A stretch of 11,688 nt of DNA from a virus. Lineage: Duplodnaviria; Heunggongvirae; Uroviricota; Caudoviricetes. Under the pieces are notes generated by a model. It saw nothing but the letters and a program-made list of their open reading frames with translations. It did not search any database and was not told the origin of the DNA. Shown one piece after another: positions 1,761 through 8,387 of this stretch. The position numbers and the translations under genes were made by a program. Every line of letters begins with the position of its first letter. The first letter of the stretch is position 1. Location of the stretch: IMG/VR virus record IMGVR_UViG_2571042053_000015; one strand, 5' to 3'.

Positions 1761-2312
1761 ATGAAAGATATTACAAACATCGCAGTGACTGGCGAAGATG
1801 GCGTGGTGACGTATGCCGACGGCAGTAAAGAGGAGTTCCAGTGCAGCGGAACCGTTGCGACCATCATTGCAAGTCTTGCAACGACACTCGAGAAAGAACG
1901 CAAAATGCGCATCGCCACCGGCGACCGCCTGCGCCGCATGTACACCCGCGACAGTGATATGATTTCCCGCGGTTTGAATGGCACGTCTGCTACTTCCACG
2001 GCACCGACAGCAATGAATGCTGAGTTCATGCGTCTGGTACGTGCCGTAGCGCCGAAATACGATTCAGCACTGCCCGACGCCGACCCGCGCATCGTTGCGC
2101 TCGATGTGCTGCGCTACGCCCCTGCTGAGGCGTTCAGCGCCGTACACCCTACCCCAATGTCAGAAATCCAGCTGGATCAGGCTATCGATATACTCGAGCA
2201 GGTTGGCGACTACATGAAAGCAAACAATATCGCTCCGAAAATAATTTCTACAGGAGACGCAATCCGCAGCATCAATGCTGACAACGCCACCTTCTGGGGC
2301 AAAAAACACTAA
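1761..2312 (+). CDS. Hypothetical protein (183 aa), first gene of cargo operon 1
   Basis: ORF with a GAGG Shine-Dalgarno 8 nt upstream of the ATG. No motif recognised from sequence. Co-directional and tightly spaced with three downstream genes. Confidence 0.7.
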   Translation: MKDITNIAVTGEDGVVTYADGSKEEFQCSGTVATIIASLATTLEKERKMRIATGDRLRRMYTRDSDMISRGLNGTSATSTAPTAMNAEFMRLVRAVAPKYDSALPDADPRIVALDVLRYAPAEAFSAVHPTPMSEIQLDQAIDILEQVGDYMKANNIAPKIISTGDAIRSINADNATFWGKKH

Positions 2313-2318
2313 AGAGAT

Positions 2319-2513
2319 ATGAGCATGCCTATCTATGACCCGAAATTAGCCGCAGGCAACCCACAGCGCGCCCACCGCCCGATGCTGACCCGTCAGGATC
2401 TTGAAGCGGCAAAGGCACGCAATAACTTCGATCGCCAGAGTCGCAACCTGCAGCAACTCAACGAATCAAATGCACGGTTCTGGAGTGAACAGAATGAGAA
2501 AGCCAAACGTTAA
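2319..2513 (+). CDS. Small hypothetical protein (64 aa)
   Basis: ATG at 2319, 7 nt after the upstream stop, preceded by AAAGAG. Hydrophilic, Q/R/N-rich. Overlaps the next ORF by 20 nt in a different frame. No recognisable domain. Confidence 0.45.
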   Translation: MSMPIYDPKLAAGNPQRAHRPMLTRQDLEAAKARNNFDRQSRNLQQLNESNARFWSEQNEKAKR

Positions 2514-2670
2514 GCCGGTCCTGCTGTCCGCCGAGCAGATGCAGGCCATACGCAACATTCAGGAACGTGAACGCCAGCGCTCCAATCTCGGCGTCGCTCC
2601 CACCGTTCACCAGATTGCCCGCGGCCTCATGGCTAAGGCTCTGGCCTCACTGGCAAGCGAGGGCGTGTAA
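2494..2670 (+). CDS. Small hypothetical protein (58 aa), internal start of the 2401-2670 ORF
   Basis: ATG at 2494 preceded by GGAG (2482-2485) at 8-nt spacing. Its TAA stop (2668-2670) overlaps the ATG of the next gene (TAATG), indicating translational coupling. The longer 2401 start lacks a Shine-Dalgarno. Confidence 0.5.
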   Translation: MRKPNVKPVLLSAEQMQAIRNIQERERQRSNLGVAPTVHQIARGLMAKALASLASEGV

Positions 2671-3341
2671 TGGGCGCCATTCACCAGATATATGAGCAGG
2701 AAATGTTCTATAACTGGATAGGCGATGGTAAACGATGTGTAGCATTCCACGAAGCGGGCCATGCAGTAGCCGCATGGCTTATTCGCTTAGATATGCAGGT
2801 TATCGCCATTATGGATGAATCCGGCTACGTTGCTGGCGAACATGTACATGAAGCCCAGTGTTTGGGCGTTGTTAAACACGGCATAATCCACAACCACGAT
2901 CTCAGGCGTTTGCGGGAGAGTAAATCTGGTGTAGTTGGGCACGATGGCAAAGTTATCCCTTTCATACGCTACTACGCGGAAGGTATAAAACGCGATGCAA
3001 CAAAGGCCGCTTTTGTAGCCCTCGCTGGACCAGTAAGCGAAGCCCTTTACGAAAATAACGAAATTTTCAATAAAAAGTATTCACTCCCTCACCGCTATGA
3101 CATGGCTAACGTAAATGACATGCTCGATTTAATATGTGCCACGGATAAGCAAATTAACAGGAAGTTAATGCTTTCTAAACTTGTTGAAAAGACCAAATTC
3201 CTCATGACTCAATACTGGCCGGAAGTAGGAAAAATAGCGCATTTGCTTGAGCGGGATAACATTGTTAATGGGCGCGATGTTAGCTCGCTAATCGGCCTCA
3301 ACGTCATTGACCGGGCAACGCCATTTTTGCTGGCGGAATAA
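2670..3341 (+). CDS. Stand-alone zinc-metallopeptidase-domain protein, FtsH-like (peptidase M41-type HEAGH motif)
   Basis: 223-aa ORF. Residues 24-36 VAFHEAGHAVAAW carry an HExxH zinc-binding motif in the FtsH-like context (FtsH has AYHEAGHAI). No AAA+ ATPase or transmembrane region precedes it. Start codon overlaps the upstream stop. Confidence 0.75.
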   Translation: MGAIHQIYEQEMFYNWIGDGKRCVAFHEAGHAVAAWLIRLDMQVIAIMDESGYVAGEHVHEAQCLGVVKHGIIHNHDLRRLRESKSGVVGHDGKVIPFIRYYAEGIKRDATKAAFVALAGPVSEALYENNEIFNKKYSLPHRYDMANVNDMLDLICATDKQINRKLMLSKLVEKTKFLMTQYWPEVGKIAHLLERDNIVNGRDVSSLIGLNVIDRATPFLLAE

Positions 3342-3417
3342 CCCCTGCCCGAGCTCATTCGACGATTTATTCCTCGGCGGGTAAGCTATACCGGTCTACC
3401 TAACTGCGAGCACAAGG

Positions 3418-4476
3418 ATGATGAATAATTTAATCAATCGCATTGCTTTAACCTTTCTAGCGTTAGTACTCACAGGCTGCACTGCGGGGAAAATCGATCC
3501 CGCAAAAGCGTTAACACAAATGCATATCGTCAAAAGTGATGACTATAAGAAGCGCCCCGGCTGGCCTGCGTTGGTTCGTCTGGGTACTGACGATTGTGAG
3601 ACATACAAAAGTGGCGGCGGTAGCCTCTTTAAGTGGGACGGGCTGACGTGCAACGACAAAAGCATTATCCTGGCGGTTAATAGCAAACCACAGACCATTC
3701 CAGTGTTCTACGCTGCTTACCATGAATACGGGAGCTATGGGGTCGGGGAACTATCCAATTTTGACAATAGCACCCGAACAGGTGAGGAAGCCTCGAAGAT
3801 TCTGGTTAACCTGACCACAGTATTGAACAATCCGGCAAAAGTTGACGCTATCTATGCTGACTATGAAAAGGATCGTTGGAGCATGGGACTTGGTACAGTC
3901 AACGAAAGCGATTTTAAAAAGAGCCTGGCTACTTTTGCTCAGGAACGGGATAAGCTTGCCTCTGAATACCATAAATTACGTGACGCAAACCAAAAGAGAT
4001 ACCTAGCTGAACGGGACGAACGAATCAAACGTGAGAAAGAAGAGGCCATGGCCTCTGAAAAAACGATTGATCTCGTGTTATGGCAGAATCCAACAGTTGA
4101 GCAACAGATGGTTGTTGACGCTCTGCACACTATTAAATTCACAATAAGAAACGATGGCGTGGCATACGCTAACGGTCGCCGATTTATGTCAATTGCCGGG
4201 ATGGAATATCTCAGGAATAGCCTAGCTCTGAGTATGGAGTCATGTTCAGACGCTGGGGCATATGTTGGTGATACGGCATTAAATCGCGCATGTATTCAGG
4301 GCTTGGCGAGGAACATTGTTGAGTGGGGGAAAACCGCCAACGACCGTTCTATTTCAGACAGAGCATGGAACGCAGCCGCAATGGATGGCAGCATTAACTA
4401 CAACCCAATCAAGTATGAAATCCTGTTTTCACATTGGGCAGGAATGGCCCGTGTCTACTCTGCTCGTAGATATTAA
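3418..4476 (+). CDS. Predicted lipoprotein (352 aa) with a central coiled-coil / charged segment; function unknown
   Basis: N-terminus MMNNLINRIALTFLALVLTGC has a hydrophobic signal peptide and lipobox L-T-G-C (Cys21). Charged, helix-prone segment ERDKLASEYHKLRDANQKRYLAERDERIKREKEEA. Gene is visibly AT-rich compared with int and primase. Followed by a terminator. Confidence 0.75.
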   Translation: MMNNLINRIALTFLALVLTGCTAGKIDPAKALTQMHIVKSDDYKKRPGWPALVRLGTDDCETYKSGGGSLFKWDGLTCNDKSIILAVNSKPQTIPVFYAAYHEYGSYGVGELSNFDNSTRTGEEASKILVNLTTVLNNPAKVDAIYADYEKDRWSMGLGTVNESDFKKSLATFAQERDKLASEYHKLRDANQKRYLAERDERIKREKEEAMASEKTIDLVLWQNPTVEQQMVVDALHTIKFTIRNDGVAYANGRRFMSIAGMEYLRNSLALSMESCSDAGAYVGDTALNRACIQGLARNIVEWGKTANDRSISDRAWNAAAMDGSINYNPIKYEILFSHWAGMARVYSARRY

Positions 4477-4618: not shown

Positions 4619-5731
4619 CTATTTAACTAAACGTAAATGTGACGGGCGTATCCCCGATTCCTGGGTACTCGATTTTCCACCATTGATAGCTTCCATAAAG
4701 AAGCTGTTACTGAAAGTAAGTGCACTCGCTTCGTCCGCTGGTAACCTCAACTGCTCGAGAATATCTCCCCTTTTAACGCCTTTGCTGCGTAGGGCTGAAA
4801 ACACTTTATCCAGCACTAATGACTTTTCACGTTCAGCAATCCCTTGAGGCTCACTCGTACGATATCCACGGCGAGCAAGTTCTATCGATAGCTGTCGATA
4901 ATGCCATTCGGTAGATAAACCGACATCAAACGTACGGCGCACCAAAGCCGCCAATGATACCCGCCAGTTCTTTTTTAACGAGATGAGTAGATCAAGCGAT
5001 GGCATTCTTGGCACTAAAGCTAAAATACTACGCTCAGGCATCAAAAAGGCCGATGCGAATCGATCTGCATCCTGCTCAGCTTGGCGGCCGTTGTTAGTTG
5101 AATGTTTATGGAGAACCAAGTGCCCCAGTTCATGAGCTGCATCGAATCGACTACGCTCCGGCGTTTTCATTGTATTCAAAAGCACAAAAGGTTTTTCATC
5201 CATCCAGAACGAAAAGGCGTCTACTTCAATACAATTTTCCGCGAGAGAGAACACACGGACCCCATTAGCTTCAAGAAGATGGACCATGTTAGAGATGGAT
5301 AATTCACCTATCCCCCAACTTTCTCTAACCACGCGAGCAGCTCGCTCAGGCTCAGAATAACCATCGAAACTACAATCAGGTACATTAGGTTTAGGAAGCT
5401 TAAACTGCCCGTCAATCCAAGCTGATAGCTCTTGCGCGAGCTTTCCGGCTCCGAGTGCTGAGTCCCTTTTCTGTGCCGTCAACTTTGTCATTGCACGGAA
5501 ACTAACGGCTTCTGGCGACAGAGTAGGTACATCCCTGTCGAGGAAGAACTCAATCGGATAGCCCAGAACAGCAGAAATCCGTTCCATGGTATCGCTGGCT
5601 ATGGCATCAAAAATCCCTGCTTTCTCGTAATTCGAAATCGTCTTACTAGTCAATTCTGTAGCTTCAGCTAAAGCTCTTTGTGTCAGGCCTCTCCGTTCTC
5701 TGGCTATACGTAAACGCTCTGAATTAAACAT
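4619..5731 (-). CDS. Fused XRE-family HTH / ImmA-IrrE (M78-like) zinc-metallopeptidase protein
   Basis: 370-aa ORF. N-terminal HTH (RLRIARERRGLTQRALAEATELTSKTISNYEKA, typical XRE / Cro-C1 helix-turn-helix). Central HExxH in the ImmA/IrrE context (RFDAAHELGHLVLHKH). Second gene of a two-gene - strand operon, 9 nt after the upstream stop. Confidence 0.85.
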   Translation of the reverse strand: MFNSERLRIARERRGLTQRALAEATELTSKTISNYEKAGIFDAIASDTMERISAVLGYPIEFFLDRDVPTLSPEAVSFRAMTKLTAQKRDSALGAGKLAQELSAWIDGQFKLPKPNVPDCSFDGYSEPERAARVVRESWGIGELSISNMVHLLEANGVRVFSLAENCIEVDAFSFWMDEKPFVLLNTMKTPERSRFDAAHELGHLVLHKHSTNNGRQAEQDADRFASAFLMPERSILALVPRMPSLDLLISLKKNWRVSLAALVRRTFDVGLSTEWHYRQLSIELARRGYRTSEPQGIAEREKSLVLDKVFSALRSKGVKRGDILEQLRLPADEASALTFSNSFFMEAINGGKSSTQESGIRPSHLRLVK

Positions 5732-5740
5732 GGTGCATAT

Positions 5741-6460
5741 TTAGCCTGTTTTTAAAATGTCGAGATCGATATCCGGTGTAAACTGCGGTACATCACCGTT
5801 CTGAACAATAGGGTCAGGTTGATGAGGAGCAATAATTAAACGTGTGGAGAAGGCATTAACTACATTCTTGTTATTGTATGAAATCGGGCGTGAAAGCTCA
5901 GCTCGGATCCCCACGCGCTCATCCCCGTCAATTTCATAAAAATCGTAAAGTAAAAACCATAAGTCCAGTCCGATTTTATTCGGTAGCAGTGGTATAACAT
6001 CACCTTCCGGCATGTCTAAATCCAGCTTAAGCTGGCTATCATCCAGGATAAGCTCACCCTGACCCGGGGTGTTATTATGGATTAACCCCATCAGCTCACA
6101 AGTAAAATCACCTTTCTTCATGCGAGACTCAGGAAATCCATGAACCAAACCTGTCTGATCACACCCCCGGCAGAGGTAAAGGGCAACTTTATCACTTACA
6201 GTCAGTTCAACATTTCGCAGGGACAGACGTTTGTAGCCTTTCGGAGCCAGAATGTCGCGGGCTGCACTCACCCCCTCACCATAGAAATATTGCCCACGTG
6301 AGGTCTTGGGGTGATTCTGAGTCGTCGAATAACGACCAGACAAGCCACGCTCAAGAATACGCCTGAGATCACTTTGGCTCAGATTCAGGGACTGCAGGTA
6401 GGATTCAACATCGTCAGGATCTGCCAAAACAATGGTTTTTGCGAGATTATGAGAGTACAT
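5741..6460 (-). CDS. Hypothetical protein (239 aa), first gene of the - strand two-gene operon; candidate effector / toxin partner
   Basis: ORF with a good Shine-Dalgarno (AAGAGG about 9 nt upstream of the ATG on the - strand). No motif recognised by eye. Immediately upstream of the HTH-peptidase gene. Confidence 0.7.
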   Translation of the reverse strand: MYSHNLAKTIVLADPDDVESYLQSLNLSQSDLRRILERGLSGRYSTTQNHPKTSRGQYFYGEGVSAARDILAPKGYKRLSLRNVELTVSDKVALYLCRGCDQTGLVHGFPESRMKKGDFTCELMGLIHNNTPGQGELILDDSQLKLDLDMPEGDVIPLLPNKIGLDLWFLLYDFYEIDGDERVGIRAELSRPISYNNKNVVNAFSTRLIIAPHQPDPIVQNGDVPQFTPDIDLDILKTG

Positions 6461-6489
6461 CGGAAAAGCCTCTTATATATTTTCTATTT

Positions 6490-6518
6490 TTTATACCTCA
6501 TTTGAGGTTTAAAAACAA
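6490..6518 (-). promoter_or_regulatory. Candidate promoter of the - strand operon with a palindromic operator (ACCTCA-TT-TGAGGT, 6495-6508) in the spacer
   Basis: Read on the - strand: -35 TTGTTT (+ strand 6513-6518), 17-bp spacer containing the 14-bp inverted repeat, -10 TATAAA (+ strand 6490-6495), about 29 nt before the ATG at 6460. Confidence 0.35.
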
Positions 6519-6666
6519 GAAAATCACTGTATAAAATCTCAGAGATAATCGACAGATTAGAGAGTATTATCCATATTGAGGCTATCCCGACGGGGAGAAA
6601 AGCGGCTACGCCTTGCCGCCTGCCTCCCCCATTATCTCAAGGCGGTGACGTGTAAGGCGAACGTGC

Positions 6667-7494
6667 ATGAGTGGTTTTGTTTTTCCTTTCGAGTTTCAAC
6701 CAGTGCCAGAGGCATTGGCAATCCTGAACGACATGGATATTGCTCCCTTTGAAATAACCGAAAAACACCTAGAAAGCTGGTGGGCGGAGGGGAAAATTCA
6801 ACTGTGCTTTAACTGGGGTAGATTCTGGAAAGCTGGCTTAGCCGACGAACTGGCAAAAACAGAAGGCTACGCAGAATTAGGGGCGAAAGAAAAGATCACT
6901 GCGCTCAATGCTGTATCCGCTTCCCCCGAGGCTAACATCAGTCTTGTCGTGCCATCTTACAGCGATTTAAGTTTTATCTGGCGCGGGCATAGCGACGATC
7001 CACTCCCCTGTATCGAGGCCAAACCCTACGGGCTTGATCAACCTTTTGTTATCAAACGCGTTCCTCACACCTGCGAGGACTATTGCGATTACGGTACGCA
7101 GCATTGGGAAAAACTTTACCATTCGCTGCACATTTCGAGTATGGTGCTGCCGCGTGCTGAAGCTGAAAAAATTTATTATCTCTGCAACCCTACAGCTATT
7201 CCAGGCATGGACGAAAAGACGGCATCTGCAGTATCTGCAGTATCTGCGAAAACGGTTAACTATCTGGCCACTGCTTTAAAAGCTTTTATTCACATCCATT
7301 ACGGGGCTGATGTGGCGGACAACCTGCGCAAACATCTTGAGGATCCCACCAGTGATATACGGAAAGACTTTGCGAATAAAGGGATCAAAGCGCCAGGTGG
7401 AAAAGCGCTGGCCAGCCATCTGAAAAATATTCTGATTGAAGTTTTACCCGCGCTCGACAACGTCGATGTGGAGAGTGACGCTGGTAATACATAA
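6667..7494 (+). CDS. Hypothetical protein (275 aa), orphan cargo gene immediately upstream of alpA
   Basis: ORF with AAGG 9 nt upstream of the ATG. No recognisable catalytic motif. Cys/His-rich patch (PHTCEDYCDYGTQHWEKLYHSLH). Contains an in-frame 9-bp tandem repeat. Confidence 0.7.
   Translation: MSGFVFPFEFQPVPEALAILNDMDIAPFEITEKHLESWWAEGKIQLCFNWGRFWKAGLADELAKTEGYAELGAKEKITALNAVSASPEANISLVVPSYSDLSFIWRGHSDDPLPCIEAKPYGLDQPFVIKRVPHTCEDYCDYGTQHWEKLYHSLHISSMVLPRAEAEKIYYLCNPTAIPGMDEKTASAVSAVSAKTVNYLATALKAFIHIHYGADVADNLRKHLEDPTSDIRKDFANKGIKAPGGKALASHLKNILIEVLPALDNVDVESDAGNT
7222..7248 (+). repeat. In-frame 9-bp tandem repeat, three imperfect copies (GCATCTGCA GTATCTGCA GTATCTGCG), encoding ASAVSAVSA
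   Basis: Direct inspection of the sequence inside the 6667-7494 ORF. Confidence 0.7.
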
Positions 7495-7590
7495 CCCCGG
7501 AACATTCCATATATTCCGACGCATTAGAATATTCCAGAGCCCATCACCATAACCTTGCGATTACCTTCTCACTCAATAGCAGGTAATCGC

Positions 7591-7803
7591 ATGAAATCGC
7601 AAACTTTCACCTTTCCCACCAATGGCAACGCACGAGCCAAACAAGTGGCGCACTATCTTGGAGTGCATATCAGCACCGTATGGCGCTATGCAAAACGTCC
7701 TGATTTTCCAAAACCCCACCAGTTAACCGACGGCGTGACCGTCTTTGACGCCGCAGCTATTCGCCAATGGAACAAGCAAAAAACCGGGGGTGAGAATGCT
7801 TAA
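7591..7803 (+). CDS. alpA: AlpA-family (P4 Vis-like) transcriptional regulator / excisionase-like protein
   Basis: 70-aa protein from the internal ATG at 7591 (AGGTAA Shine-Dalgarno just upstream). Sequence QVAHYLGVHISTVWRYAKRPDFPKPHQLTDGVTVFDAAAIRQW matches the AlpA / Vis winged-HTH pattern. Position between int and primase matches P4-like elements. Confidence 0.8.
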   Translation: MKSQTFTFPTNGNARAKQVAHYLGVHISTVWRYAKRPDFPKPHQLTDGVTVFDAAAIRQWNKQKTGGENA

Positions 7804-7857: not shown

Positions 7858-8052
7858 TCAGGCTTTCGGCTCAATACCCAGCCGCTGGAGTTCTTTGCGC
7901 CCCAAGGTTTTCATCCAATTAGCTAAACTCATACCTGCATCTCGTGCGGCGGCCTCGAATTGCTCTTTCAATTCTGGGGCGATCCTCACTTGGAAAGCTG
8001 GTGCCTTTCCCCTGCCTTTGGGCTGTTTATCACGCTGTATTACTGTTGACAT
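7858..8052 (-). CDS. Ribbon-helix-helix (Arc / CopG-like) DNA-binding protein, candidate repressor of the replication operon
   Basis: 64-aa product from the internal ATG (MSTVIQRDK...). PAFQVRIAPELKEQFEAAARDAGMSLANWMKTLGRKEL shows the beta-strand / helix / helix pattern of RHH proteins. Divergent from the operon starting at 8187. The longer 8103 start would place the operator-like palindromes inside the coding region. Confidence 0.6.
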   Translation of the reverse strand: MSTVIQRDKQPKGRGKAPAFQVRIAPELKEQFEAAARDAGMSLANWMKTLGRKELQRLGIEPKA

Positions 8053-8122: not shown

Positions 8123-8156
8123 ACGCCCCGTATGTGTTGCGAGCACTACGGGGCGT
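8123..8156. other. GC-rich hairpin (10-bp perfect stem ACGCCCCGTA / TACGGGGCGT, 14-nt loop) in the leader of the small-gene / primase operon
   Basis: Verified inverted repeat. On the - strand it is followed by TGTCTTTTCTG (terminator-like); on the + strand it sits about 30 nt upstream of the 8187 start. Could be an attenuator, terminator or RNA element. Confidence 0.4.
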
Positions 8157-8186: not shown

Positions 8187-8387
8187 ATGGCTAAGCCGCA
8201 GTGTACCCAAACTCACCCCAAATATCAGTATCGTTTTATGGCGCTCGATCGCGCTGACCGCCAGGCAAAACCCTGCAAAATCATTGTTGAGGCCACCAGC
8301 GAGCACGAAGCGCGTAAAGTGCTGGCTCCTCACTACATCCTGTCACTGTCCGCCGTTTTGCCAGTTCAGGAGGTGAGCCATGTTTAA
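8187..8387 (+). CDS. Small hypothetical protein (66 aa) of the P4-like replication / regulatory module
   Basis: ATG with GGAG 9 nt upstream. First of five tightly coupled small ORFs preceding the primase. Resemblance to small Icd-like / Ash-like proteins of P4-family prophages is only a vague recollection, not verified. Confidence 0.55.
   Translation: MAKPQCTQTHPKYQYRFMALDRADRQAKPCKIIVEATSEHEARKVLAPHYILSLSAVLPVQEVSHV

What the first reader, a model, noticed from the sequence alone, without database searches (positions are those of the whole stretch)
6667..7494. Orphan 275-aa protein upstream of alpA containing an in-frame 9-bp tandem repeat
Sits where CP4-57 carries yfjH (which is on the opposite strand there), but this gene is co-directional with alpA. 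No recognisable motif; a Cys/His-rich patch (PHTCEDYCDYGTQHWEKLYHSLH) could bind metal. Three imperfect copies of a 9-bp unit (7222-7248, ASAVSAVSA) could expand or contract by slippage without frameshift. Candidate single-gene accessory factor.
Basis: partly seen in the sequence, partly recalled or inferred. Interest (0 to 1): 0.45.

Follow-up and report, generated by a model that had tools for sequence, protein, structure and literature searches.

The report
Modular alpA-partner gene in phage satellite
This is a real, conserved but unnamed gene that sits just before alpA, the master-switch gene of small phage-parasitic islands. Its two halves are shuffled between islands, and the DNA just after it changes in step with its tail half, so it is probably a regulator of alpA. 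The 9-base repeat is only a length change in a floppy linker.

Summary
The ORF (6667-7494, 275 aa) and its in-frame 9-bp repeat (7222-7248) are real. Copy number varies: 3 units here, 2 in near-identical E. coli islands.

The gene is not an orphan and not cargo. It belongs to an unannotated Enterobacterales family of about 100 clusters at 50% identity, with no Pfam, PHROG, PADLOC, NCBIfam or PDB match. In 13 island variants, spanning four AlpA alleles and a capsid-forming PICI, a family member lies 60-110 bp upstream of alpA.

Its start codon lies about 90 nt after the start of the Rfam int-alpA RNA motif (RF02996, 6575-6642) in 14 of 15 motif instances. The fifteenth, the Erwinia locus L011, is spaced a few nt further.

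The protein has three parts:
- a variable N-module;
- a disordered linker, which holds the repeat;
- a small basic helical C-module that comes in three types.

N- and C-types recombine freely. The roughly 55 bp after the stop codon carries short repeats that co-vary with C-type, even between distant genera. Type A goes with GGAAYATTCC, type B with GAGTTTT..AACTCC and type C with TTTTAGTGT.

Best reading (about 0.5): a sensor-regulator whose C-module binds these sites upstream of alpA. The Cys/His patch is not conserved. The repeat is a linker polymorphism, not a switch.

The parts
6575..6642 (+). int-alpA RNA motif (Rfam RF02996), the conserved 5' leader of the gene
   Evidence: cmscan scores 46.5 bits against a gathering score of 35.8, E 3.4e-7. 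The same motif lies upstream of the family gene in 6 other loci and in 8 loci found by pattern search. The ATG comes 88-92 nt after the GAGGC of stem P1 in every instance but the Erwinia locus L011, where it is a few nt further. 95.8% of cells are paired, and the one-sided changes in stems P1 and hairpin 1 all give G-U or U-G wobbles; a few cells in hairpin 2 and in the proposed pseudoknot are unpaired.
6643..6666 (+). Conserved spacer carrying the Shine-Dalgarno-like AAGG (6654-6657) of the gene
   Evidence: GTGTAAGGCGAAC..ATG is nearly invariant in 12 islands. The DNA mosaic analysis shows that 6576-6678 is conserved even where the flanks are not.
6667..7494 (+). Coding sequence of the 275-aa family protein ('X')
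6667..7197 (+). Variable N-module (aa 1-177). It contains an acidic MerR/excisionase-like winged-helix start (aa 1-50, pI 4.2), a lineage-specific helical insert (aa 51-92), a beta-rich part, and the conserved motif MVLPRAEAEKIY (aa 159-170).
7063..7131 (+). Cys/His-rich patch PHTCEDYCDYGTQHWEKLYHSLH (aa 133-155)
   Evidence: The Cys and His residues are not conserved in the family alignment. pLDDT here is about 62-64.
7198..7260 (+). Disordered inter-module linker (aa 178-198)
   Evidence: pLDDT below 50. Length and sequence vary across homologues. The N/C recombination junction falls here: the L007 match ends at 7192 and the L017, L022 and L010 matches begin at 7238-7243.
7222..7248 (+). In-frame 9-bp tandem repeat (ASAVSAVSA), 3 units here and 2 units in sister islands
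7249..7491 (+). C-module, type A (aa 195-275): a small basic helical domain (core pI 9.6) followed by an acidic tail
7499..7535 (.). Three GGAAYATTCC-like palindromic decamers (7499-7508, 7509-7518, 7526-7535): candidate binding sites of the type-A C-module
   Evidence: The sequences are. Two of the only three hits with at most 1 mismatch in the 11.7-kb window fall here. The motif type matches the C-module type in 14 of 14 loci, with no cross-type hits.
7550..7555 (+). -10-like hexamer TAACCT (TAGCCT in most relatives), just upstream of the hairpin
   Evidence: Read by eye. The consensus promoter scan did not call it. This is an inference.
7556..7591 (+). Strong hairpin or palindrome covering the Shine-Dalgarno sequence (AGGT) and the A of the alpA start codon
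   Evidence: dG is -18.1 kcal/mol, z -6.2, and 0 of 200 shuffles do as well. Equivalent hairpins with four different sequences occur in 9 island types.
7591..7803 (+). alpA (70 aa), the downstream partner gene
   Evidence: Pfam Phage_AlpA, E 5e-7. An HMM search finds alpA after the family gene in the loci.

Best explanation
The gene is the first cistron of a conserved regulatory module in a family of small integrase-AlpA-primase phage satellites. That family includes some capsid-forming PICIs. The module reads: int-alpA RNA leader, then X, then type-specific short repeats, then a hairpin-gated alpA.

X is a two-module protein.
- C-module. This small basic helical module comes in three interchangeable types. 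It most likely binds, as a dimer, the short palindromic repeats between its own stop codon and the weak alpA promoter, and so sets alpA transcription. Whether it represses or activates is unknown.
- N-module. This variable module is built on an acidic, degenerate MerR/excisionase-like winged helix. It most likely provides oligomerisation and senses a signal, probably a helper-phage protein.

Together they would couple helper infection to AlpA-driven excision and replication. In logic this resembles SaPI Stl, or a phage immunity cassette in which repressor and operators are swapped together.

The Ala/Ser/Val 9-bp repeat only lengthens the disordered tether between the modules.

Shown here: the gene is real and under purifying selection; it is syntenic with alpA and with the RNA leader; the modules are shuffled; the downstream repeats co-vary with C-type; the repeat lies in the linker and varies in copy number.

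Inferred: DNA binding, regulation of alpA, and sensing of a helper phage.
For: 1. Synteny. X lies 60-110 bp upstream of alpA, on the same strand, in 13 distinct island variants. These carry four different AlpA alleles and three primase types. In two of them int, X and alpA are contiguous: Kosakonia L016 and the Morganella capsid-forming PICI L021. All 17 E. coli genomes with this alpA backbone carry a family member.

2. Own conserved leader. RF02996 lies upstream of the ATG in 15 of 15 motif instances, at a spacing of 88-92 nt in 14 of them.

3. Modular shuffling. The same N-type occurs with C-type A or B (window vs P0004; P0011 vs P0036/E2348-69) and with A or C (P0009 vs P0022; P0023 vs P0037). 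The DNA breakpoints fall in the linker.

4. Co-variation of C-type with the downstream repeats. Type A goes with GGAAYATTCC-like motifs in 8 of 8 loci, including the distant Morganella and Arsenophonus members. Type B goes with GAGTTTT(N3-5)ARYTC in 3 of 3, and type C with TTTTAGTGT in 3 of 3. There are no cross-type hits, and background is about 0-1.7 per kb.

5. The sites abut a weak -10-like hexamer and the alpA start. The scan calls no consensus sigma-70 promoter there and no + strand terminator between X and alpA.

6. The C-module core is basic (pI 9.6) and the N-module is acidic. The C-module folds confidently as a small helical bundle.

7. C-type does not track the AlpA allele, the hairpin type or the primase type. 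Its specificity partner is therefore the adjacent repeat block, not another island protein.

8. Published background. [quoted passage not shown]
Against: - The repeats are physically adjacent to the C-module coding DNA, so co-inheritance by linkage explains part of the co-variation. The motifs were defined on the same loci in which they were then counted.
- Some of these repeats can also form RNA hairpins in a read-through transcript, so the target could be RNA.
- No experiment bears on this family, and no paper mentions its accession numbers.
- The family is rare: 17 of 5426 complete E. coli genomes. No X, leader or alpA-backbone DNA was found in the other complete E. coli genomes, so the classical E. 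coli PICIs do not appear to carry it, though they were not examined individually.
Confidence: 0.5

Rival explanations
1. A helper- or host-facing adaptor or effector that does not bind the island's DNA. X would be an early protein made together with AlpA. Its two swappable modules would each grip an external partner, for example a helper-phage protein and a host machine. It would act by derepressing the helper (as P4 epsilon does), by interference, or by takeover. The downstream repeats would then be RNA or DNA elements with another role.
For: Neither module type tracks any other island gene. The winged-helix-like N-terminus is acidic (pI 4.2). Among its weak structural neighbours are MerR-fold proteins that work by protein binding, CbpM and DafA. 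The extreme diversity of N-types is typical of proteins in an arms race with phages.
Against: It does not explain why type-specific short palindromes follow the gene in every case, even in distant genera. No enzymatic or known effector domain is present. There is no similarity to P4 epsilon or to any phage protein.
Confidence: 0.2
2. One reading: a stand-alone accessory anti-phage gene carried in the defence hotspot beside the Rosmer system.
For: It lies next to rmrT and rmrA (PADLOC E 1e-52 and 1e-149), at the right edge of the variable cargo region. Its sequence is modular and diversifying.
Against: X is present whatever the cargo: Rosmer variants, TumE/HVO_A0114 plus HTH, a split HTH/M78 pair, or no cargo at all with int directly upstream. 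It always has alpA downstream and its own conserved leader upstream. No PADLOC model matches it. All 17 E. coli islands with this backbone have it.
Confidence: 0.12
3. A recombination-directionality or excision cofactor that works with Int and AlpA.
Against: That subdomain is acidic and lacks the basic recognition helix. hhalign probability against AlpA is 0.75%. Module types shuffle independently of the int and AlpA alleles.
Confidence: 0.08
4. A contingency (phase- or antigen-variable) gene whose 9-bp repeat tunes or switches its function.
For: Copy number differs (3 vs 2) between almost identical islands.
Against: The change is in frame, so there is no on/off effect. Only two states are seen, and the 3-copy genomes are 100% identical over the 1130-bp query, which is consistent with a single event. 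The repeat lies in a disordered linker of variable length. More distant homologues have ASAESA with no perfect repeat.
Confidence: 0.03

Closest known systems
SaPI Stl (Rpr) master repressors of Gram-positive PICIs
   Same: Encoded by a satellite beside the excision/activation genes. Two-part design, with a DNA-binding module and a highly variable module that recognises different helper-phage proteins. Very diverse between islands. (Published knowledge, summarised in PMC6092414.)
   Different: No sequence or fold similarity. Stl is transcribed divergently from its target operon and its HTH is N-terminal. Here the gene is co-directional with alpA and the putative nucleic-acid-binding module is C-terminal. 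DNA binding and helper sensing have not been shown here.
Phage immunity cassettes (lambdoid cI/operator regions; CTXphi rstR/ig-2 types)
   Same: A regulator type and its cognate short repeats are exchanged together as a cassette between otherwise similar elements (my own knowledge of those systems). Here C-types A, B and C each come with their own repeats.
   Different: Only the C-module and about 55 bp are swapped, with a breakpoint inside the gene's linker. The N-module is exchanged independently. The fold is unrelated to cI/Cro or RstR.
Rfam RF02996 int-alpA RNA motif (from Weinberg et al. 2017, PMC5737381; Rfam types it as an sRNA, function unknown)
   Same: The motif is present at 6575-6642 above Rfam's gathering score.
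   Different: The motif is an RNA element, not the protein. The new point here is that a member of this protein family starts about 90 nt after the motif starts in all 15 instances examined (88-92 nt in 14 of them). That fits a cis-acting 5' leader better than a free-standing sRNA.
AlpA / Vis / HTH_17 / MerR-type winged-helix proteins
   Different: Neither Pfam nor hhalign supports the link. The helix that would contact DNA is acidic or hydrophobic.
YfjH of CP4-57 (the gene in the equivalent position in E. coli K-12)
   Same: It lies between intA and alpA.
   Different: Opposite strand and no homology (hhalign probability 0.1%). No Pfam family matches it either.

Membership tests
Rfam RF02996 int-alpA RNA (for the leader at 6575-6642) | Covariance-model score at or above the family's gathering score (35.8 bits), with an outer stem enclosing two hairpins | tested here: met
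   46.5 bits, E 3.4e-7, full-length match to model positions 1-71. 95.8% of cells are paired in 12 copies.
Rfam RF02996 int-alpA RNA | Location between an integrase gene and alpA in enterobacterial mobile elements | tested here: met
   The window and 14 further instances fit this. In each case the X-family ORF lies between the motif and alpA.
AlpA / HTH_17 / MerR winged-helix DNA-binding family (N-terminus of X) | Significant match to the Pfam models Phage_AlpA, HTH_17 or MerR_1 | tested here: not met
   No hit at E 0.01 or better. On 23 N-terminal segments the best hits are HTH_17 at E 0.18 and MerR_1 at E 0.12. hhalign against 8 AlpA proteins gives probability 0.75%.
AlpA / HTH_17 / MerR winged-helix DNA-binding family (N-terminus of X) | Winged-helix fold with a basic recognition helix | tested here: inconclusive
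Rosmer defence system (RmrT/RmrA) | Match to an RmrT or RmrA model, and obligatory co-occurrence with the pair | tested here: not met
   X has no PADLOC hit, while its neighbours do. X occurs without Rosmer in L004, L015, L016 and L021.
P4 backbone genes (epsilon, delta, sid, psu, cI region, orf151, orf106) | Detectable homology to a P4 protein | tested here: not met
   tblastn against 50,697 phage records, including P4, finds nothing. hhalign against P4 epsilon gives probability 0.2%. P4 has no gene upstream of vis; that region holds ori and the divergently oriented sid gene.
SaPI Stl-like master repressor (functional class) | Sequence-specific binding to operators that control the island's activation genes | not testable with these tools
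   Only indirect evidence: the repeats upstream of alpA co-vary with C-module type in 14 of 14 loci.
SaPI Stl-like master repressor (functional class) | A variable module that binds a helper-phage protein and so relieves control | not testable with these tools
   The N-module is highly variable and shuffled. No partner is known.
SaPI Stl-like master repressor (functional class) | Transcribed divergently from the genes it controls | tested here: not met
   X is co-directional with alpA in all loci.
Contingency locus (simple-sequence-repeat switch) | Repeat changes that shift the frame or alter a promoter, with many alleles and recurrent change | tested here: not met
   The unit is 9 bp and in frame. 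Only 2- and 3-unit alleles are seen. The 3-unit genomes are identical over the 1130-bp query.
Zinc- or metal-binding Cys/His motif | Conservation of the liganding Cys and His residues across the family | tested here: not met
   C136, C140, H134, H146, H152 and H155 are not among the conserved columns. C47, Y139 and D141 are.

The most novel reading that the evidence does not exclude
X is the missing helper-sensing master regulator of AlpA in a family of Gram-negative phage satellites. Under this reading it carries a previously undescribed DNA-binding domain (types A/B and C) with exchangeable operator cassettes, and an exchangeable phage-sensing N-module. The orphan int-alpA RNA motif would be its cis-regulatory leader. 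That would give these islands an Stl-like, immunity-type logic that has been sought in Gram-negative PICIs since 2018.
Probability: 0.3. Interest if true: 0.8.

Novelty: new variant of a known kind. Interest (0 to 1): 0.6.

Why it matters
How Gram-negative phage satellites sense their helper and switch on alpA is an open question. PMC6092414 states that the phage-encoded inducer is unknown and that the existence of a repressor is unclear.

This locus offers a concrete candidate that can be tested directly. It is a conserved gene next to alpA, with swappable modules and matching short repeats at the alpA promoter.

It also gives a likely job, as a 5' leader, to an Rfam motif of unknown function. 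And it defines a protein family and a small helical domain that no database yet describes.

The 9-bp repeat that drew attention to the gene is of minor importance.

Tried and rejected
- Profile libraries. Pfam, PHROGs, NCBIfam and PADLOC on X found nothing. Pfam and PHROGs on 96 family members found nothing consistent.
- PDB sequence searches with two C-module profiles found nothing.
- tblastn against phages gave no match. Against plasmids it found only two Arsenophonus plasmids.
- Homology to YfjH, P4 epsilon and AlpA was rejected by hhalign.
- A second homologue search with the C-module profile, and a third with the 96-sequence alignment, added little. Scans of representative genomes and of viral contigs for the protein each gave one locus.
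- Metal-binding patch: rejected for lack of conservation.
- Membership of Rosmer: rejected.
- Link between C-type and AlpA allele, hairpin sequence or primase type: none found.
- Independent covariation proof of the int-alpA structure and of a possible pseudoknot (hairpin-2 loop CGCCUU with downstream AAGGCG). The copies are too similar: there are only wobble changes and no double substitutions.
- Idea that alpA-promoter transcripts start inside the 5' arm of the hairpin and so escape it. This fits the window and several relatives but not Morganella L021, so it is not claimed.
- Literature searches for the accession numbers and for the yicC-dinD island found nothing.

Full report
**Observation**

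The ORF at 6667-7494 (+) encodes 275 aa. RefSeq calls the identical protein a hypothetical protein in identical E. coli islands.

TRF finds a perfect period-9 tract at 7224-7247. In frame it reads ASA-VSA-VSA, aa 186-194, nt 7222-7248. It is the longest short-period self-match in the window, and none of 1000 simulated windows reaches it.

alpA (7591-7803, Pfam Phage_AlpA) follows 96 bp downstream on the same strand. Both halves of the gene are under purifying selection, with dN/dS 0.12 and 0.05-0.09.

**The repeat**

Nine complete E. coli genomes carry the gene. Six match at 100%, and the one that was aligned has 3 units. DEC5B and A34 were aligned and have 2 units. MS 16-3 is inferred to have 2 from its 9-bp-shorter match. 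Otherwise the DNA is 98.9-100% identical. A metagenome contig also has the 2-unit form.

Homologues at 93% identity read ASAESA at this spot. A Glu-to-Val change would turn this into the 2-unit form ASAVSA. That step is inferred from the protein sequences, because no homologue DNA was examined.

The tract lies in the segment that AlphaFold leaves disordered (aa 178-198, pLDDT below 50). This segment varies in length and sequence across the family. Slippage is therefore real, but it looks like a neutral linker polymorphism that arose once, not a switch.

**Not an orphan, but uncharacterised**

There are 32 homologues in the 90%-identity cluster database. A profile search of 1.84 billion representatives finds 101 at E 0.001 or better. 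Every member that carries a name in any source is a hypothetical protein. They come from Enterobacterales: Salmonella, Citrobacter, Erwinia, Izhakiella, Kosakonia, Morganella, Providencia, Xenorhabdus, Arsenophonus and Pectobacterium.

Nothing matches:
- No Pfam, PHROG, NCBIfam or PADLOC model matches X.
- Pfam and PHROGs give no consistent match across 96 family members.
- There is no PDB sequence relative.
- No phage record encodes a relative.
- YfjH, the gene at the equivalent position in CP4-57, is unrelated, and so is P4 epsilon.

**Anatomy of the protein**

The full-length model has mean pLDDT 68.7. It shows an N-module (aa 1-177), the disordered linker, and a helical C-terminal part.

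Sequence methods do not confirm the relationship. The subdomain is also acidic (pI 4.2). I therefore treat it as a degenerate winged helix and not as a proven DNA binder.

The conserved positions are I44, C47, F48, L93, W105, P112, Y121, Y139, D141, P162, E165 and K168.

**Modularity**

The C-module comes in three types:
- Type A, as in the window: KTVNYLA..IHYGADVA..PGGKAL.
- Type B, as in E2348/69 and Salmonella: TAKQCRFIVALLRSY..TLTDWL.
- Type C, as in Citrobacter and Kosakonia: NRE..PDEC..W..AI.

Types A and B are remote homologues (hhalign 67%, E 5e-5). Type C is unrelated to both.

N-types and C-types combine freely. The window's N-type occurs with A or B, the P0011 N-type with A or B, the P0009 N-type with A or C, and the P0023 N-type with A or C. 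At the DNA level the junctions fall in the linker.

**Context**

The window is most of a 12-kb island. In E. coli it is integrated between yicC and dinD. Its gene order is:
- integrase;
- a block of five unknown genes;
- the Rosmer pair rmrT/rmrA (PADLOC E 1e-52 and 1e-149);
- X;
- alpA;
- a small ribbon-helix-helix gene on the other strand;
- an Icd-like gene and small ORFs;
- a P4-type primase.

Only 17 of 5426 complete E. coli genomes have this alpA backbone, and all 17 carry a family member. Nine have the window's form. Among the other eight, E2348/69 and 2015C-4498 were inspected and carry the same 226-aa protein, which has a type-B C-module.

Across everything fetched, X is followed by alpA within 60-110 bp in 13 distinct island variants. 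These span four AlpA alleles, several primase types and any kind of upstream cargo. In Kosakonia the integrase lies directly upstream of X. A Morganella capsid-forming PICI reads int, X, alpA, antA ... capsid, protease, portal.

The exceptions are two decayed remnants and an Arsenophonus 16-kb plasmid with PICI-like capsid and terminase genes. X is therefore a backbone partner of alpA and not cargo.

**A known RNA motif is its leader**

DNA comparison shows an island of conservation at 6576-6678, in front of otherwise unrelated N-module sequences. Rfam identifies 6575-6642 as the int-alpA RNA motif, RF02996 (46.5 bits, E 3.4e-7). The same motif precedes X in six other loci.

A pattern scan of metagenomes and viral contigs found eight more motif copies. 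Each is followed by an X-type ORF, some with new N-types, whose ATG lies 88-92 nt after the start of the motif. In the Erwinia locus L011 the motif falls below the Rfam gathering score and its ATG lies a few nt further on.

In 12 copies the stems are 95.8% paired. One-sided changes in stems P1 and hairpin 1 all give G-U wobbles, while a few cells in hairpin 2 and the proposed pseudoknot are unpaired. This fits an RNA on this strand, but there are too few changes for independent proof.

Rfam types the motif as an sRNA of unknown function. The fixed spacing to X argues for a cis-acting leader.

**Repeats that track the C-module**

The roughly 55 bp after the stop codon differs between islands, but it always matches the C-type:
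- Type A genes are followed by GGAAYATTCC-like palindromes. In the window these are at 7499-7508, 7509-7518 and 7526-7535. The same holds in Salmonella, Erwinia, Izhakiella, the Morganella PICI (GGAATTTCC, TTCCGGAA) and the Arsenophonus plasmid (GAGAATATTCC, TGGAATATTCGAATATTCC).
- Type B genes are followed by two GAGTTTT(N3-5)ARYTC repeats.
- Type C genes are followed by TTTTAGTGTG/CACACTAAAA, or by two TTTTASTGT repeats.

In a count over 14 loci the match is 14 of 14 with no cross-type hits, against a background of 0-1.7 per kb. In the window, two of the only three hits with at most 1 mismatch fall in this 96-bp spacer.

The repeats end just before a -10-like TAACCT (TAGCCT in most relatives). 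The scan finds no consensus promoter there and no + strand terminator between X and alpA. C-type does not follow the AlpA allele, the hairpin or the primase type.

**The alpA hairpin**

A strong hairpin at 7556-7591 buries the Shine-Dalgarno sequence and the first base of the alpA start codon (dG -18.1 kcal/mol, z -6.2). Equivalent hairpins with four unrelated sequences sit at the same place in nine island types.

It could gate alpA translation in read-through transcripts, or it could be a palindromic operator. I could not decide between these.

**Interpretation**

The best-supported reading (about 0.5) is that X is a sensor-regulator of alpA:
- The C-module binds the type-specific repeats at the alpA promoter. 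DNA is most likely the target because the motifs are short palindromes.
- The shuffled N-module provides oligomerisation and signal recognition, plausibly of a helper-phage protein.
- The leader RNA controls X itself.

This mirrors the logic of SaPI Stl and of phage immunity cassettes, but with unrelated folds, a reversed domain order and co-directional genes. [quoted passage not shown]

The main caveats are these:
- The repeats are physically linked to the C-module DNA.
- The motifs were defined on the same loci in which they were counted.
- No DNA-binding fold could be assigned.
- There are no experiments.

The rivals are a phage- or host-facing adaptor (0.2), a stand-alone defence gene (0.12), an excision cofactor (0.08) and a repeat-driven contingency gene (0.03).

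**Verdict**

The repeat is nonetheless the least important feature. The 'accessory factor' and 'metal-binding' readings are not supported.

What is there is an undescribed, modular, alpA-linked gene family with its own Rfam leader and cassette-like downstream repeats. It is a good experimental target for how these satellites are switched on.

Noticed in passing
window 7556-7591: A strong hairpin or palindrome (TGCGATTACCT..AGGTAATCGCA) covers the Shine-Dalgarno sequence and the A of the alpA ATG (dG -18.1 kcal/mol, z -6.2). Equivalent hairpins with four unrelated sequences occupy the same position in nine island types. It may be a translational gate or an operator.
   Followed up: partly
window 4619-6460 (- strand): A Rosmer defence pair: rmrT (5741-6460) and rmrA (4619-5731, HTH plus M78 peptidase). 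It is transcribed divergently from the gene under study. Sister islands carry other Rosmer variants or other cargo here.
   Followed up: partly
window 6479-6524: A 22-nt AT-rich inverted repeat (86% complementary, 2 nt apart) lies just upstream of the rmrT start. It is a candidate operator for the HTH of RmrA, or part of the divergent promoter region.
   Followed up: no
window 8123-8156: A palindrome (ACGCCCCGTA N14 TACGGGGCGT) lies between the ribbon-helix-helix gene (7858-8052, - strand) and the Icd-like gene (8187-8387). It is conserved at 91-100% in four other islands and matches itself in reverse orientation.
   Followed up: no
window 1761-4476: A block of five unknown genes (183, 64, 58, 223 and 352 aa) lies after the integrase. 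It is conserved in the E2348/69, Salmonella and Citrobacter islands. The 223-aa protein has an HEAGH motif with weak hits to peptidases M41 and M50. The 352-aa protein starts like a lipoprotein (LTGC). This may be a second cargo system.
   Followed up: no
L001, L002, L003, L013, L014 (E. coli chromosomes): The island is about 12 kb and is integrated between yicC and dinD. It is present in only 17 of 5426 complete E. coli genomes, including O45:H2, O55:H7 and EPEC E2348/69. It has no capsid or packaging genes, so it is a minimal int-alpA-primase element.
   Followed up: partly
L004 9837-9914 and 10088-10175: The Salmonella relative carries isrK and C4 antisense RNA matches (the latter is P4 CI-like, to my knowledge) downstream of alpA. 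The window has no such Rfam hit, so immunity regions differ between sister islands.
   Followed up: no
L012 (Arsenophonus nasoniae plasmid pArsFIN15, 15,977 bp): A circular 16-kb 'plasmid' encodes terminase, portal, protease, a head-tail connector, a VapE primase and a 347-aa family member with the type-A repeats downstream. It has no detectable alpA. It looks like a capsid-forming satellite kept as a plasmid.
   Followed up: no
window 6609-6614 with 6639-6644 or 6654-6659: The loop of the second hairpin of the int-alpA motif (CGCCUU) is complementary to two downstream AAGGCG copies. The second copy is the Shine-Dalgarno region of the gene. This could be a pseudoknot or an anti-SD switch. Only wobble changes are seen in 12 copies, so it is unproven.
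   Followed up: partly
P0008 (Logan assembly): A 200-aa variant, 99% identical over the first 55% of the protein, ends in an out-of-frame tail. It is either a frameshifted allele or an assembly error.
   Followed up: no
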